Shown: positions 46,240 to 59,074 of the stretch, piece by piece
Position numbering within the stretch: position 1 is the first letter of the stretch
How the letters are laid out: each line of letters begins with the position of its first letter
Source: a virus
Direction: 5' to 3' (one strand)
DNA length: 63,208 nucleotides
Virus record (IMG/VR): IMGVR_UViG_3300016457_001358
Span: 1 to 63,208 of that record
Made by a program: the position numbers and the translations under genes
The notes under the pieces: model-generated
Seen by the model: the letters and a program-made list of their open reading frames with translations, nothing else
Database searches by the model: none
Told to the model about the DNA's origin: nothing

Positions 46240-46320
46240 TCATCAGAATATATATATTCCATCGCACAATTGATGTATACCATTCTTCCATATATATAGA
46301 GAGAAATTTTTTGGCGATGC
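46240..46320. promoter_or_regulatory. conserved ~85-nt promoter/operator region, copy 1 (upstream of PCNA)
   Basis: cagaatatatatattccatcgcacaattgatgtataccattcttccatatatatagagagaa..ttggcgat; ~85% identical to 51266..51345. Confidence 0.5.
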
Positions 46321-46376
46321 GAAGTAGCGCAAACGGGTCATTTATGCTGAAGCGCTTATTTCGAGAGGCGAATAAA

Positions 46377-47096
46377 ATGTATGTAAAAATTGAAAATTTC
46401 AAGGGTTTTTTGGATGACTTGAGAGCAATCAGTAAGATAGTCGACGAAGCGCGAATTAGGGCGGATCCCGACGGCTTGAAGATAAAAGAGGTTGACAACG
46501 CAAACATGTGCGTCGTTGACTACTTTTATCCCAGAACCAACTGCATCGAATACGAAAGCGATGACAGAGTTGCCGGTATAAACCTTGAAAATCTCAATAA
46601 ATTGCTTAAATTGGCTAAAAAGAACGACATAATTGAAATAAAAACTGAGAACGACAGTATGATACTGACATTGAGCAATGACAGCACCGTTAAAGGGAGG
46701 AATTTTACATTTTCCTTGATTGAAGTGGAAAATAAATTGCCAGGCGATTTGGATTTCAAAACCGAAGTATCAATGCGCACGGAAGCACTTAAAACGGTGG
46801 TTGAAGAGGCGGAAACCATCAGCGATGCCATTATATTCTCTGTTATCAACGGGGTTTTCAAGGTAAAAACCGAGAATGCCACAACCAAATACAGCACGGA
46901 AATCGATGCCGAAAGCAAAGGAGCGAACGCCAATAGCAAATACCGGATAAACTATTTGAAGCGGTTTTTGATCAACAAAAAGGATGTTGAAGAGGTTAAA
47001 TTGGAGTTCAATACGGACTATCCGCTGAGAATGACGTTTAGCAGGCGGGACAAATCGGTGCTGAAATATTTATTGGCACCGGTAATTGATGGGTGA
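46377..47096 (+). CDS. pcn: PCNA sliding clamp
   Basis: ISKIVDEARIRADPDGLKIKEVDNANMCVV, VAGINLENLNKLLKLAKKND and C-terminal YLLAPV match archaeal PCNA blocks. Confidence 0.85.
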   Translation: MYVKIENFKGFLDDLRAISKIVDEARIRADPDGLKIKEVDNANMCVVDYFYPRTNCIEYESDDRVAGINLENLNKLLKLAKKNDIIEIKTENDSMILTLSNDSTVKGRNFTFSLIEVENKLPGDLDFKTEVSMRTEALKTVVEEAETISDAIIFSVINGVFKVKTENATTKYSTEIDAESKGANANSKYRINYLKRFLINKKDVEEVKLEFNTDYPLRMTFSRRDKSVLKYLLAPVIDG

Positions 47097-47102
47097 GAAA
47101 CT

Positions 47103-47471
47103 ATGGGATACTATACGCAAATATATGTAAATCTGAAGGTAAAGAAGCAGAAAATAGAGGAATTTAAGAGCAAAATCGAGGAACTGAAGGAGAAGGTCAG
47201 AAACGGAACTCTGCCAGATGGCAATTGGTTCTGGTGGTATGAGGACATCAGCGTGGCGGAGGACGGCAGTATAGAATTTACTGACTATACCAGAAAGTGG
47301 TATGAGGAAGAAAGATTTTACAACTTCATAAAGGATTATGTGGAACAGGGTTATATTGAAGGATACGGCGAAGAATTTGGAGATATATGGAGAGTTGTTT
47401 TTGACGGCAAAGGCCACTTCAAGTGGCAGGAAGCGGTATTCCAAGATGTAAAAGGGTTGGTGGTTCAATGA
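47103..47471 (+). CDS. hypothetical protein
   Basis: 122 aa acidic Trp-rich ORF. Confidence 0.4.
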   Translation: MGYYTQIYVNLKVKKQKIEEFKSKIEELKEKVRNGTLPDGNWFWWYEDISVAEDGSIEFTDYTRKWYEEERFYNFIKDYVEQGYIEGYGEEFGDIWRVVFDGKGHFKWQEAVFQDVKGLVVQ

Positions 47472-47587
47472 TGTGGGGTTTGTTGAGTGAAGATGAATTC
47501 GCCGAAGTGATGGATGCGTTGAACAAGGTTGGAATAGAAATAACAAACAAACAATATGAAGAATTGAAGGAAATTTTGGCAGTTTGA
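47468..47587 (+). CDS. hypothetical small protein
   Basis: 39 aa hand-delimited ORF. Confidence 0.25.
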   Translation: MMWGLLSEDEFAEVMDALNKVGIEITNKQYEELKEILAV

Positions 47588-47606
47588 ATGATGAGGTGAA
47601 TATAAG

Positions 47607-47753
47607 ATGAACTGGGACAAAGTGAGCGATTGGGATATGGAAAACGGCGAAGTCAGGTTTTTTGACGACGAAGGCAAATTGATAAATACCGCTTGGCTTG
47701 ACGACATAATAGACAGTTACATAGAACATATGAAAGAATTGGATAGGCGATGA
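47607..47753 (+). CDS. hypothetical small protein
   Basis: 48 aa hand-delimited ORF. Confidence 0.25.
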   Translation: MNWDKVSDWDMENGEVRFFDDEGKLINTAWLDDIIDSYIEHMKELDRR

Positions 47754-47755
47754 AA

Positions 47756-47881
47756 ATGTCATACTTTAGTTGCGATTGCGGTTGCGATGACTGGAAGTTA
47801 AAAGAGGACGGTAACAAACTGATTGTGGTGTGTAAGAATTGTGGAGAAGTATTTGACGAAAATTTGTTTGTTTATAAGTGA
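47756..47881 (+). CDS. zinc-ribbon protein
   Basis: CDCGC...CKNCG. Confidence 0.3.
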   Translation: MSYFSCDCGCDDWKLKEDGNKLIVVCKNCGEVFDENLFVYK

Positions 47882-47960
47882 TGTATATACAATAAAAACG
47901 AAACTAATCTAAAGAAGAATCACGGCTTTGTCGGTTGCGATGTGCCGACAGGTGGTAAAA

Positions 47961-48182
47961 ATGGTGGAAAATTTAGATGTATTGTTGGGCATGTTGGAAA
48001 AACTGAAATACAATATTGAGGAAGCAATTGACGAGGTAATAAATGAAGAATTGGATAAAATAACAAATTATGACATACAAGTACAGCTGAATTCTGTAAG
48101 ACACAAACTCGTAAGCAAACTGAAAGACATTGAAACTATGAAAGAAATAGAGGAATTTTTAATGGAGAGACCTGTTTTGTGA
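47961..48182 (+). CDS. hypothetical protein
   Basis: ATG preceded by aggtggtaaaa in frame 47928..48182. Confidence 0.35.
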   Translation: MVENLDVLLGMLEKLKYNIEEAIDEVINEELDKITNYDIQVQLNSVRHKLVSKLKDIETMKEIEEFLMERPVL

Positions 48183-57108: not shown

Positions 57109-57120
57109 CGCTCGATTGAA

Positions 57121-57477
57121 ATGAGGAAAATAAACAAGAACAGAAAGGGGCTGTATGCCGAGAACCAGGTCAGGGAGCATCTGGAGGCGCGGGGATATCT
57201 GGTATGGAAGCCCAGCAGGAGCAGGTTCAACTCCAACGACATCTTCGGGCTCTTCGACATGCTCGCCGTGCATCCGGCCAGAAAAACACTCTGGATACAG
57301 GTAAAGCACAAGAGTTCATACTCCTCCAAAGTCAAGGAAAGTATCCAGAGATTCGCGGACGAATACATGTCGCCGTATGATATCGCGGAAATATGGGTGA
57401 AGAACCGTCCCAAGACATTCATCGTCCGCAGATACTATCCCCATACCGTATGGGAAAGCATGCTGATAGCGGTCTGA
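57121..57477 (+). CDS. PD-(D/E)xK-fold nuclease, Holliday-junction-resolvase (Hjc)-like
   Basis: KGLYAENQVREHLEARGYLV ... DIFGLFDMLAV ... LWIQVKHKS (E / D / Q-x-K layout). Confidence 0.5.
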   Translation: MRKINKNRKGLYAENQVREHLEARGYLVWKPSRSRFNSNDIFGLFDMLAVHPARKTLWIQVKHKSSYSSKVKESIQRFADEYMSPYDIAEIWVKNRPKTFIVRRYYPHTVWESMLIAV

Positions 57478-57659
57478 AGAGGTGAATAAAAAATGACCAG
57501 GAAGAAAAAAATTAAAGTAGAAGATGCTCCAACAATGAAGCCCGGAAGTATCCGCGATGGTGGAAGAGTCTTTGCTGTTTTGTGTATCATACTATGGGGT
57601 TTCATTTTGTGCGGCTTGATCATGCTTGTGACAAAATAAGAATCGAGAGGTGAGATTGT

Positions 57660-57887
57660 ATGAAACAACTCAAAAAAATCGTAACCAAACCGGTGAGATA
57701 TTGCGAAAAACACAAAATCCACTATAAAAAGGGGGAAGAATGTCCGAAATGCAAAGAGGAACGAGAAGCAACCAAGACAACCATTGTACTGGGTCCGGAT
57801 GTTATGAAGAAATTGCTTGCCATTATGAAGAGAAAGGGATTCAAAACAAAAGAAGAAGCGATCAAAGAGACCATTATGAGATACTGA
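57660..57887 (+). CDS. zinc-ribbon protein
   Basis: CEKHKIHYKKGEECPKCKEE. Confidence 0.35.
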   Translation: MKQLKKIVTKPVRYCEKHKIHYKKGEECPKCKEEREATKTTIVLGPDVMKKLLAIMKRKGFKTKEEAIKETIMRY

Positions 57888-57992
57888 TGCGGTACAAATC
57901 ATCATAACCCCCCCCCCAAGTCAAAAGTTTGAGTTGCGGCTTTCATAGGTTGGCAATCCAACCAACACTTTACATTTGGATTACAGCATTCT

Positions 57993-58241
57993 TTGGTGGT
58001 ACAGATGAAACCGGTAGATTGGAACGAAATGGACAAAAAAGAAAAAGAGGCGTTGGCGTTAAAGTTATTACATAGCGTAAGAGGCGAATATATAATAAGT
58101 CAAGCACTTGTGAAGGCAATCGAAGCGATGCAATCGGAAAAATATCCCGAAACAAGCAATATACAGGATATGGAAATGCTGCTCGAACTGTTTCCGATAT
58201 ATAAACTAGTTCAAGCAGCGAACAAAAAGCGATTGAAATGA
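57993..58241 (+). CDS. hypothetical protein
   Basis: 82 aa ORF. Confidence 0.35.
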   Translation: MVVQMKPVDWNEMDKKEKEALALKLLHSVRGEYIISQALVKAIEAMQSEKYPETSNIQDMEMLLELFPIYKLVQAANKKRLK

Positions 58242-58339
58242 AATGCCCTGTTTGCGGATCTACCAGAATCAAAGGAAATAAAAACAAATGGAAGTGCATG
58301 AGATGCGGTTTCAAACACATAGGAATCAAATCATTGTGA
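58238..58339 (+). CDS. zinc-ribbon protein
   Basis: MKCPVCG...CMRCG. Confidence 0.3.
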   Translation: MKCPVCGSTRIKGNKNKWKCMRCGFKHIGIKSL

Positions 58340-58351
58340 GGGGAGAAGATT

Positions 58352-58498
58352 ATGCCGCGATTAACAAAAAGGCAGAAAGTGATTCCGCAAGAACATGGCT
58401 ATTACAAATGTCCGTACTGTAACCATATCTGGAAAAGCAAGCTGAAAAGCAGGAAACCCAAAGAGTGCCCGTTTTGCCGCAAATATTTTATACCGTGA
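58352..58498 (+). CDS. zinc-ribbon protein
   Basis: CPYC...CPFC. Confidence 0.3.
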   Translation: MPRLTKRQKVIPQEHGYYKCPYCNHIWKSKLKSRKPKECPFCRKYFIP

Positions 58499-58501
58499 TG
58501 T

Positions 58502-59074
58502 GTGATGATCAAGGCGCAAATAGATGGCAAATCATTGGGCAATCCCGGACGAGCATACTGGATAGCATTATTTGACCGAAAACTGGGAGAGTCCAACAGA
58601 TATTACGGCGAAGGCGACGACCTCACCAACAACGAGGCGGAGTATAACGGTTTGATATTGGCTTTGGAAAAAGCGCCCGAAAACTGCGAGCTCGAAATCG
58701 AAACCGACAGCAAATTGCTGGTCGGCCAGATGACGCAAAACTGGAGAATAAACTACCCCCATCTGTACGAGCTCAATCAAAGAGCGAACGATCTGATCAG
58801 ACGCAAGTGCATCAAATTGAATCTCAAATGGATTCCGCGCGAGAAAAATATATCGGATTTGGTGCTTAACAGGCACCTTCGAAAGACGGGGATACTGGAA
58901 ATAAGGTGCCCGCTGTGCGGAGGAAATGGTTATTTCAAACAGGAAAAGTGGTTGACGGATTTCAAATGTTTCCTTTCGAAAAGGGAACGCGACATAGCAT
59001 CTTCCGAAGATTATAAAGATCTCAGAGGCATTTTTGTCAAAATCTTCGGAAGAGAGCCAAAAAAAGGTGGTTGA
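58502..59074 (+). CDS. ribonuclease HI-like protein with C-terminal zinc ribbon
   Basis: IDGKSLGNPG, NNEAEYNGLILAL, ETDSKLLVGQ, WIPREKNISDLVLNRH; C-terminal CPLCGG. Confidence 0.7.
   Translation: MMIKAQIDGKSLGNPGRAYWIALFDRKLGESNRYYGEGDDLTNNEAEYNGLILALEKAPENCELEIETDSKLLVGQMTQNWRINYPHLYELNQRANDLIRRKCIKLNLKWIPREKNISDLVLNRHLRKTGILEIRCPLCGGNGYFKQEKWLTDFKCFLSKRERDIASSEDYKDLRGIFVKIFGREPKKGG

What the first reader, a model, noticed from the sequence alone, without database searches (positions are those of the whole stretch)
46240..59074. Replication/repair accessory set without a recognisable polymerase or primase
PCNA (46377..47096), P-loop NTPase (51641..52543), RNase HII (52615..53301), Hjc-like nuclease (57121..57477) and RNase HI (58502..59074) are all present, plus a metallophosphoesterase at 4158..5066, yet I found no DNA polymerase, primase or helicase motif in any ORF. 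The element may recruit the host replisome via its own clamp, or a divergent replication initiator is hidden among the hypothetical proteins.
Basis: inference. Interest (0 to 1): 0.5.

Follow-up and report, generated by a model that had tools for sequence, protein, structure and literature searches.

The report
Archaeal tailed virus without own polymerase
The window is the complete ~63-kb genome of a tailed virus of archaea that carries a sliding clamp and several DNA clean-up enzymes but no detectable DNA polymerase, primase or replicative helicase, so it most likely borrows the host's copying machinery, which is a known if poorly understood viral lifestyle.

Summary
The observation largely holds. 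The window is a closed ~63,117-bp tailed-virus genome (91-bp terminal overlap; another sample's contig crosses the junction). HMM searches confirm PCNA, RNase HII, RNase HI and the P-loop protein. The 'Hjc-like' label is not supported; there are only weak PD-(D/E)xK hints. Pfam on 131 ORFs (92% of bases), PHROGs on the non-structural ORFs and independent precomputed Pfam calls found no DNA polymerase, primase, replicative helicase, Orc1/Cdc6, RepH or clamp loader.

The metallophosphoesterase most resembles the PolD small subunit (DP1) nuclease domain. In related viruses, however, it lies among terminase and portal genes.

The P-loop protein is an AAA+ ATPase with a predicted C-terminal winged helix. 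It is homologous to T4 NrdC.10, whose function is unknown, so it is only a weak initiator candidate.

Best reading: host-replisome-dependent replication, with a viral clamp and lagging-strand processing and repair enzymes. Stand-alone viral PCNA is already documented (phiH, phiCh1; Kazlauskas 2016). This is a new member of a known kind, of modest interest.

The parts
46377..47096 (+). PCNA sliding clamp, 239 aa
   Evidence: PF00705 5.3e-10. NCBIfam NF002222 3.2e-40 over residues 10-238. PDB archaeal PCNAs 2.8e-23 over the full length. 23-26% identical to the PCNAs of phiH, phiCh1 and Halorubrum tailed virus.
51641..52543 (+). AAA+ ATPase with lid and a predicted C-terminal winged helix; NrdC.10-like; function unknown. 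It is the only initiator/helicase candidate.
52615..53301 (+). RNase HII, archaeal/eukaryotic type 2
   Evidence: PF01351 6.3e-14. TIGR00729 3.8e-18. PDB RNase H2A 4e-13. D, E and D of the active site are conserved; the fourth Asp aligns with His.
57121..57477 (+). Small putative PD-(D/E)xK-type nuclease.
   Evidence: No hit in Pfam, PHROGs, NCBIfam or PDB. Homologue P0187 gives DUF4365 E 0.0017 and NERD E 0.027, both sub-threshold. The sequence shows an RKG..E...D...QVK pattern.
58502..59074 (+). RNase HI domain with a C-terminal Cys-rich tail
   Evidence: PF00075 1.6e-7 and PF13456 6.5e-8. phrog_531 5.9e-13. NCBIfam archaeal RNase HI models 5e-15 to 3e-20.
28120..29085 (-). ATP-dependent DNA ligase domain (adenylation plus OB) within the 1661-aa polyprotein
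   Evidence: PF01068 2e-24, residues 1083-1271. PDB archaeal ligases 1.6e-16, residues 1057-1378. Coordinates computed.
27268..32253 (-). 1661-aa multidomain protein next to the portal gene; other pipelines call it as 1612 aa starting at 32106. Domains: MBL, Dam, an unassigned region, an EndoV-like helical domain, a mini-nucleotidyltransferase, DNA ligase and a C-terminal region.
4158..5066 (+). Winged-HTH domain plus a metallophosphoesterase nuclease most similar to the phosphoesterase domain of the PolD small subunit DP1
   Evidence: NCBIfam DP1 models 2.8e-18. The six best PDB hits are all DP1, best 1.8e-5. 36.5% identical to ORF43 of Halorubrum tailed virus BLv36. In related viral contigs it lies beside terminase and portal genes.
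35900..38100 (.). AT-rich region (20-29% GC) at the divergence of the two gene blocks, with T-rich TATA-like repeats spaced 303-320 nt apart. It is probably an early-promoter region and a possible origin.
   Evidence: An ORB-like motif scan was not above chance. The origin assignment is inference only.
33629..35149 (-). Terminase large subunit; marks the element as a tailed virus
   Evidence: Terminase_6C 3e-11 and Terminase_6N 1e-5.
32103..33380 (-). Mu-like portal protein
   Evidence: PF06074 2.7e-12. The same call appears on contigs from other samples.

Best explanation
The window is the complete circular (or terminally redundant) genome, about 63.1 kb, of a tailed virus (Caudoviricetes) of an archaeon. 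The virus does not encode the enzymes that synthesise DNA. It has no DNA polymerase, primase, replicative helicase, origin-binding initiator of a known type, or clamp loader. It therefore most likely replicates with the host's replisome: PolB/PolD, PriSL, MCM/GINS and RFC.

What the virus does supply is a layer around that machinery:
- its own PCNA clamp, which host RFC would have to load;
- enzymes that remove RNA primers and RNA-DNA hybrids (RNase HII and RNase HI);
- an ATP-dependent DNA ligase that could seal nicks;
- nucleases (a DP1-like phosphoesterase and a small PD-(D/E)xK-like protein);
- DNA methyltransferases.

Shown: the presence and identity of these genes, the completeness of the genome, and the absence of detectable polymerase or primase.

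Inferred: that the viral PCNA biases host polymerases or viral processing enzymes towards viral DNA, and that the AT-rich 35.9-38.1 kb region holds the origin.
For: Genome completeness:
- The ends share an identical 91-bp repeat.
- A contig from another sample runs continuously from RNase HI through the 323-aa ParB gene into the 5' end of the window.

Viral nature:
- Terminase large subunit and Mu-type portal.

Archaeal affinity:
- PCNA, archaeal-type ligase and RNase HII.
- An S27e gene whose closest cellular relatives are in DPANN archaeal MAGs.
- A DP1-like nuclease with a homologue in a Halorubrum virus.

Absence of replicative enzymes:
- Pfam on 131 ORFs covering 92.4% of bases.
- PHROGs on most non-structural ORFs.
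- Independent precomputed Pfam calls on identical contigs.
- No homologue of phiH RepH (tblastn E = 1).
- Outside the structural module, no unassigned ORF exceeds 240 aa apart from the 484-aa ORF 61624-63078 and the roughly 330-aa N-terminal part of the vWA protein.

Precedent:
- phiH and phiCh1 carry PCNA, and no polymerase is annotated in the non-structural half of phiH.
- Kazlauskas 2016 reports that PCNA homologues are sometimes encoded without a polymerase.

Related contigs:
- Contigs sharing the AAA+ gene show no replicative Pfam families in 16-21 kb around it.
Against: - Absence is shown only at the sensitivity of HMMs plus two structure models. About 60% of the ORFs remain unannotated, and not every ORF was modelled.
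- No PIP-box enrichment supports a clamp-centred network.
- The accessory genes are scattered: the ligase is in the head module, and the phosphoesterase is linked to terminase and portal genes in relatives. Some may therefore serve packaging, repair or anti-defence rather than replication.
- RNase HII has His in place of the fourth catalytic Asp.
- The AAA+/winged-helix protein could be a virus-specific initiator or helicase.
- The host has not been identified.
Confidence: 0.6

Rival explanations
1. The virus does have its own replication starter. In this reading the AAA+ ATPase with a C-terminal winged helix (51641-52543) binds the viral origin and acts as an initiator, helicase or helicase loader. 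Only the polymerase and primase are then taken from the host.
For: - AAA+ fold with a beta-hairpin before sensor 1, as in ring translocases such as MCM, RuvB and SF3 helicases, plus a lid and a predicted winged helix.
- Sub-threshold match to the SF3 model PF00910 across Walker A to Walker B (E 0.033).
- Homologues carry inteins at the P-loop. From general knowledge, inteins tend to sit in replication and repair proteins.
- The gene lies directly upstream of RNase HII, preceded by two small winged-HTH genes.
- The gene is conserved in related viral contigs.
Against: - It is homologous to T4 NrdC.10 (E 7e-11), with hits in 1028 phage records. The listed hits are T4-like and jumbo phages, and T4 at least encodes a complete replisome of its own. 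The function there is unknown.
- The best solved-structure matches are MoxR chaperone-like ATPases, not initiators.
- The Walker B motif reads FRD and lacks the catalytic Glu.
- No Pfam, NCBIfam or PDB sequence hit to any helicase or initiator reaches threshold.
- T4 NrdC.10 lacks the C-terminal domain, so the part of the protein shared across the family is the ATPase alone.
Confidence: 0.2
2. A polymerase or primase is present but too divergent to detect. It could lie among the small unannotated ORFs. Alternatively, the GS..DxD mini-nucleotidyltransferase domain upstream of the ligase in the 1661-aa protein could act as a Pol X-like gap-filling polymerase.
For: - The invariant motif hG[S]x10-12 D-x-D is conserved in 12 homologues.
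- The domain sits between an EndoV-like glycosylase-type region (Pyr_excise hit in homologue P0157) and the DNA ligase. That order would fit a base-excision-repair chain.
- About 60% of the ORFs have no annotation.
Against: - A profile of this domain finds no polymerase in the PDB.
- The domain is about 100 aa. By my own knowledge it would have no room for the fingers and thumb of a polymerase.
- At most it would be a repair enzyme, not a replicase.
- No unassigned non-structural ORF is large enough for a known replicase.
Confidence: 0.07
3. The listed genes do not form a replication set. They are independently acquired functions for DNA repair, recombination, packaging and counter-defence. 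In this reading PCNA serves as a platform for repair or recombination-dependent replication, not as a recruiter of host polymerase.
For: - The genes are dispersed over the genome (parts list).
- The ligase, Dam, MBL and nucleotidyltransferase domains are fused in a head-module protein. The MBL domain gives a weak Anti-Pycsar Apyc1 hit. From my knowledge this resembles the 'polyvalent' proteins that some phages are thought to package and inject.
- The phosphoesterase lies between terminase and portal or prohead genes in related viruses.
- The genome also holds an RNA ligase, a vWA protein and two DNA methyltransferases.
Against: - PCNA, RNase HII, RNase HI and a ligase together are the classical Okazaki-fragment processing set (functional categories in PMC4889955).
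- PCNA, the AAA+ gene and both RNases H lie in one co-oriented block, 46-59 kb.
- This reading does not explain how the genome is copied, so host dependence is still required.
Confidence: 0.13

Closest known systems
Haloarchaeal myoviruses phiH and phiCh1 (Vertoviridae, about 58 kb)
   Same: They are tailed archaeal viruses of similar genome size. Each carries a stand-alone PCNA, 23-24% identical to the one here, along with several DNA methyltransferases and small CxxC and HTH genes. No DNA polymerase is annotated in the non-structural half of phiH.
   Different: phiH and phiCh1 have an identifiable 928-aa plasmid-type initiator RepH, ParA and integrases. The window has no RepH homologue and no integrase or ParA hit. 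It does carry RNase HII, RNase HI, a ligase and an AAA+ protein that the phiH annotation does not list.
dsDNA viruses with a cellular-type clamp but no polymerase (Kazlauskas, Krupovic and Venclovas 2016, PMC4889955)
   Same: A PCNA homologue is encoded without a viral DNA polymerase or clamp loader. Primer-removal and ligase functions are present.
   Different: That survey treats such cases as unexplained exceptions. Here the genome is larger than most polymerase-less viruses and also lacks any recognised helicase or primase.
T4 NrdC.10 / phrog_1250 family of viral AAA+ ATPases
   Same: The ATPase core and lid of the 51641-52543 protein are homologous to this family.
   Different: The window's subfamily adds a C-terminal domain of about 75 aa that I read as a winged helix, and its Walker B motif is RD rather than DD. 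The function of the family is unknown.
PolD small subunit DP1 (archaeal replicase proofreading nuclease)
   Same: The phosphoesterase domain of 4158-5066 matches DP1 best, including the GDxxDGxxxYxGQ stretch and the GNHD and GHxH motifs.
   Different: DP1's N-terminal region, including the OB fold that I know precedes its phosphoesterase domain, is replaced by a winged HTH. The genome contains no DP2. Related viruses place the gene among terminase and portal genes. Kazlauskas 2016 found no viral PolD homologues.
Multidomain 'polyvalent' head-module proteins of phages (recalled from Iyer et al. 2017; not checked here)
   Same: It is a very large protein encoded next to the portal gene that strings together a DNA methylase, an MBL hydrolase and other nucleic-acid enzymes.
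   Different: This one contains an ATP-dependent DNA ligase and a mini-nucleotidyltransferase. Whether it is packaged into the virion has not been tested.

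Membership tests
Tailed archaeal virus (Caudoviricetes) | Terminase large subunit and portal protein | tested here: met
   Terminase_6N/6C and Portal_Mu hits; the same calls appear on contigs from other samples.
Tailed archaeal virus (Caudoviricetes) | HK97-fold major capsid protein | tested here: inconclusive
   The candidate ORF 24844-26010(-) has no Pfam hit. Its structure was not modelled.
Tailed archaeal virus (Caudoviricetes) | Archaeal host | tested here: inconclusive
   The evidence is indirect. It consists of PCNA, S27e, a DP1-like nuclease, an archaeal-type ligase and a homologue in a Halorubrum virus. No CRISPR-spacer or provirus link was obtained.
PCNA sliding clamp | Full-length two-domain match to PCNA models | tested here: met
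   NCBIfam 10-238 of 239 aa at 3.2e-40; PDB PCNAs 5-237 at 2.8e-23.
PCNA sliding clamp | Ring formation and binding of PIP-box partners | not testable with these tools
   The PIP-motif scan of all viral proteins is at chance level.
RNase HII (type 2 RNase H) | Four acidic active-site residues (D, E, D, D) | tested here: inconclusive
   D, E and D are conserved. The fourth Asp aligns with His in the alignment to mouse RNase H2A.
RNase HI | Match to RNase H domain models | tested here: met
   PF00075, PF13456, phrog_531 and archaeal RNase HI NCBIfam models.
Hjc Holliday-junction resolvase | Sequence or profile match to the Hjc family | tested here: not met
   No hit in Pfam at E<=10, NCBIfam at E<=1, PHROGs or PDB.
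Hjc Holliday-junction resolvase | E...D...E-x-K catalytic pattern on a PD-(D/E)xK fold | tested here: inconclusive
   The sequence shows E14, D41/D46 and Q60-V-K62, with Gln in place of Glu. The homologue hits DUF4365 and NERD only below threshold.
Replicative helicase or initiator (MCM, SF3/D5, Orc1/Cdc6, DnaA) | Profile match to a helicase or initiator family | tested here: not met
   For 51641-52543 there is only a sub-threshold PF00910 hit (E 0.033), and nothing in NCBIfam or the PDB. No other ORF has any such hit.
Replicative helicase or initiator (MCM, SF3/D5, Orc1/Cdc6, DnaA) | AAA+ fold with Walker A, a Walker B D-E pair, sensor 1 and an Arg finger | tested here: inconclusive
   The fold, Walker A, a sensor-1 Asn and a conserved SRG arginine are present. 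Walker B reads FRD, without the catalytic Glu.
MoxR-type AAA+ ATPase | Closest structural similarity, and a partner vWA-domain protein encoded nearby | tested here: inconclusive
PolD small subunit DP1 | Active phosphoesterase domain with five motifs | tested here: met
   The DxH, GDxxD, GNHD, H and GHxH motifs are present. The best hits are DP1 models and DP1 structures.
PolD small subunit DP1 | DP1 N-terminal region (including the OB fold, from my knowledge) and a DP2 partner | tested here: not met
   The alignments cover only the phosphoesterase part; the N-terminus is a winged HTH. No DP2-like ORF was found in the genome.
Pol X / Pol beta-type DNA polymerase | Palm with GS..DxD plus fingers and thumb, and a match to polymerase structures | tested here: not met

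The most novel reading that the evidence does not exclude
The NrdC.10-like AAA+ ATPase with the added C-terminal winged helix (51641-52543) is a previously unrecognised kind of viral origin-binding initiator or helicase loader. It would let polymerase-less archaeal tailed viruses capture the host MCM and polymerase, with the viral PCNA then marking viral forks. This would give the stand-alone-clamp viruses a mechanism. It would also assign a function to a family of more than 3000 phage proteins that includes T4 NrdC.10.
Probability: 0.12. Interest if true: 0.65.

Novelty: new member of a known kind. Interest (0 to 1): 0.3.

Why it matters
Why some viruses encode a cellular-type clamp but no polymerase is an acknowledged open question (Kazlauskas 2016). 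This is a complete 63-kb example from an uncultured archaeal lineage, possibly DPANN-associated. It combines PCNA with two RNases H and a ligase and has no recognisable initiator, so it is a clean case for testing clamp-mediated hijacking of an archaeal replisome. In itself it adds an instance rather than a principle. The side observations may interest specialists more than the headline finding. They are a viral S27e, a DP1-like nuclease linked to packaging genes, and a ligase-containing head-module polyprotein.

Tried and rejected
- Megablast of 40-60 kb against GenBank phages found no match.
- Clamp-loader (RFC) reading of the AAA+ protein: viral RFC structures match only weakly (TM 0.4-0.5).
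- Pol X reading of the GS..DxD domain: not supported.
- DP1-like nuclease as a viral PolD subunit: weakened. The OB region and DP2 are absent, and relatives place the gene among terminase and portal genes.
- PIP-box and APIM scans: at chance level.
- Archaeal ORB-like origin motif, with the consensus taken from memory: 21 matches against 21 expected.
- RepH-type initiator: tblastn E = 1.
- Rfam scan: only the tRNA.
- Hjc: no support from any library.
- Exact-peptide scan of IMG/VR with the phosphoesterase found nothing. An alignment-based scan found 8 loci.

Full report
**What the window is**

The first and last 91 bases are identical, giving a unit length of 63,117 bp. A contig from a different sample runs without a break from the RNase HI gene, through a 484-aa ORF and a 323-aa ParB-like gene, into the genes at the 5' end of the window. 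The ParB ORF starts at 63082 and continues at position 1. The sequence is therefore a complete circular or terminally redundant genome.

Genes on the minus strand from 10.9 to 36.9 kb form a virion module:
- a terminase large subunit (33629-35149) and a Mu-type portal (32103-33380);
- a ConA-like lectin fibre protein and a possible baseplate protein (weak YQBQ-like hit).

Plus-strand genes fill the rest. There is one tRNA-Met. Nothing in GenBank phages is close at the DNA level. The terminase finds only 22%-identical Bacteroides phage proteins.

**Checking the listed genes**

- PCNA (46377-47096) is solid. It matches PF00705, gives full-length matches to NCBIfam clamp models at 3e-40, and matches Thermococcales PCNA structures at 3e-23.
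- RNase HII (52615-53301) matches PF01351, TIGR00729 and solved RNase H2A/HII structures. The fourth catalytic Asp aligns with His.
- RNase HI (58502-59074) matches PF00075/PF13456, phrog_531 and archaeal RNase HI models.
- The metallophosphoesterase (4158-5066) has a winged-HTH N-terminus. Its nuclease domain finds its best relatives, by a wide margin, in the phosphoesterase domain of the PolD small subunit DP1: NCBIfam 2.8e-18, and the six best PDB hits are all DP1.
- The 118-aa 'Hjc-like' protein (57121-57477) has no hit in any library or in PDB sequences. Its single homologue touches two PD-(D/E)xK families below threshold. It may well be a small nuclease, but the Hjc label is not supported.

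**The P-loop protein**

It has no Pfam hit above threshold. The best is the SF3 model PF00910 at E 0.033. It matches phrog_1250, a family of unknown function, at 7e-17.

A profile search found 3437 relatives. The long ones carry inteins at the P-loop. tblastn finds the family in 1028 phage records; the listed hits are T4-like and jumbo phages. By synteny and direct comparison, the T4 member is NrdC.10. Predicted viral structures confirm this. NrdC.10 has no known function, and T4 has a complete replisome of its own. The Walker B motif here is FRD, without the catalytic Glu.

This protein is therefore the only candidate for a hidden initiator or helicase, and a weak one.

**Is a polymerase, primase or helicase hidden elsewhere?**

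I scanned 131 ORFs, covering 92.4% of the bases with no gap over 200 nt, against Pfam. Most non-structural ORFs were also scanned against PHROGs. Gene calls with precomputed Pfam hits on identical contigs from other samples gave the same picture. None of these searches found:
- a DNA polymerase (families A, B, C, D, X, Y) or an AEP or DnaG primase;
- an MCM, DnaB or SF3 helicase;
- Orc1/Cdc6, a rolling-circle Rep, or RFC.

The phiH initiator RepH has no counterpart in the window.

Outside the virion module, the only ORFs of 200 aa or more are ParB, a DNA methylase, the phosphoesterase, a vWA protein, a membrane protein, two coiled-coil/HTH proteins, an RNA ligase, an amidoligase, a GATase, an ATP-grasp enzyme, PCNA, the AAA+ protein, RNase HII and a 484-aa ORF with a hydrophobic N-terminal segment and many N-x-S/T motifs, probably surface-exposed.

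The 1661-aa ORF (27268-32253, minus strand) lies next to the portal gene. It contains an MBL hydrolase, a Dam methylase and an ATP-dependent DNA ligase that matches archaeal ligases at 1.6e-16. Related viruses split it into two ORFs. The virus therefore does carry the ligase that completes a primer-removal and sealing set, but it sits in the head module.

The DP1-like nuclease has homologues in Halorubrum tailed virus BLv36 and in eight IMG/VR contigs. In several of these it lies directly between terminase, portal and prohead genes. This suggests a packaging-linked nuclease rather than a polymerase subunit.

**Mechanism**

The best-supported reading is that DNA synthesis is outsourced to the host. 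The viral PCNA would have to be loaded by host RFC, since no viral loader exists. The RNases H, the ligase and the nucleases would process primers, hybrids and nicks on viral DNA.

That PCNA acts as the recruiting device is inference. PIP-type motifs are not enriched.

The AT-rich stretch at 35.9-38.1 kb is 20-29% GC. It has T-rich TATA-like repeats spaced 303-320 nt apart and lies at the point where the two gene blocks diverge. It is a plausible early-promoter and origin region. An ORB-like motif is not enriched, and the skew follows gene orientation, so the origin is not located.

**Comparison with known systems**

- phiH and phiCh1 are tailed archaeal viruses of about 58 kb with a PCNA 23-24% identical to this one, and no polymerase is annotated in the non-structural half of phiH. 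They do have RepH, ParA and integrases.
- Kazlauskas et al. 2016 note that only cellular-type clamps (PCNA, Pol III beta) are sometimes encoded without a polymerase. They call the role of such clamps an open question, and they found no viral PolD homologues.

The window is thus a new, rather extreme member of a known kind: a clamp, two RNases H and a ligase, with no recognisable initiator.

**Host**

The viral S27e is 56-77% identical to S27e of DPANN archaeal MAGs (Woesearchaeota, Nanoarchaeota, Aenigmatarchaeota). This is a hint, not proof.

**Verdict**

Interest is modest.

Noticed in passing
window 51053-51241 (+): A 62-aa homologue of ribosomal protein S27e (Pfam 1.2e-16; NCBIfam NF001629 at 77 bits, above its cut-off of 70). 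It lies between two small winged-HTH genes, just upstream of the AAA+ gene. The closest cellular S27e sequences are in DPANN archaeal MAGs, at 56-77% identity.
   Followed up: partly
window 27268-32253 (-): A 1661-aa fusion protein next to the portal gene. It contains an MBL hydrolase (weak Anti-Pycsar Apyc1 hit), a Dam methylase, an unassigned region of about 300 aa that I suspect is ASCH-like (by eye only), an EndoV-like helical region, a mini-nucleotidyltransferase, an ATP-dependent DNA ligase and a C-terminal HTH. Related viruses split it into two ORFs.
   Followed up: partly
window 4158-5066 (+); L096-L098, L011: The winged-HTH plus DP1-like phosphoesterase protein is conserved at 32-38% identity in a Halorubrum virus and in eight IMG/VR contigs. 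In several of them it lies between terminase, portal and prohead genes, which suggests a packaging-associated nuclease.
   Followed up: partly
window 39700-40746 (+), 6144-7724 (+), 54491-54564 (+): A T4 RnlA-type RNA ligase (TIGR02308 7.6e-38), a 526-aa protein with a helical N-terminal region and a vWA domain whose layout recalls Ro60, and a tRNA-Met. Together they may be an RNA-repair toolkit. The related contig L001 carries a HAD-PNKP gene.
   Followed up: no
window 42132-44562 (+): Three adjacent genes: an amidoligase (Amidoligase_2, phrog_2443), a class-II glutamine amidotransferase and a RimK-like ATP-grasp enzyme. This trio looks like a peptide- or metabolite-modifying cluster.
   Followed up: no
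window 35900-38300: A very AT-rich stretch (20-29% GC) with T-rich TATA-like units spaced 303-320 nt apart. It also has an exact 25-nt repeat (37917-37941 and 38265-38289) and a 31-nt repeat at 38789 and 39166. The 239-aa ORF 36175-36894(-) inside it is extremely K/N/I-rich.
   Followed up: partly
homologues P0041, P0064, P0072, P0086, P0044 of window 51641-52543: Long members of the AAA+ family (457-691 aa) carry inteins, some with LAGLIDADG domains, inserted at or near the Walker A P-loop.
   Followed up: partly
window 52615-53301 (+): In the viral RNase HII, the fourth conserved active-site Asp aligns with His (the 'THRYN' stretch). The enzyme may be altered or weakened.
   Followed up: no
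window 63082-63208 joined to 1-936 (+): A 323-aa ParB-like protein (ParB_N, a ParB HTH and a C-terminal zinc finger) is encoded across the window's ends. No ParA or integrase was found, so the lifestyle (lytic or episomal) is unclear.
   Followed up: partly
window 32100-35500 and 5200-6100: GC-rich stretches (about 51%) produce long spurious ORFs on the opposite strand or out of frame, for example 32118-33449(+) at 443 aa and 32899-33459(-). A naive longest-ORF call mis-annotates the portal region.
   Followed up: yes
L010 (T4 54343-56445) and L002: In T4-like phages, the AAA+ homologue NrdC.10 sits next to NrdC.11, which is annotated as a nucleotidyltransferase. This ATPase-nucleotidyltransferase pair has no known function.
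   Followed up: no
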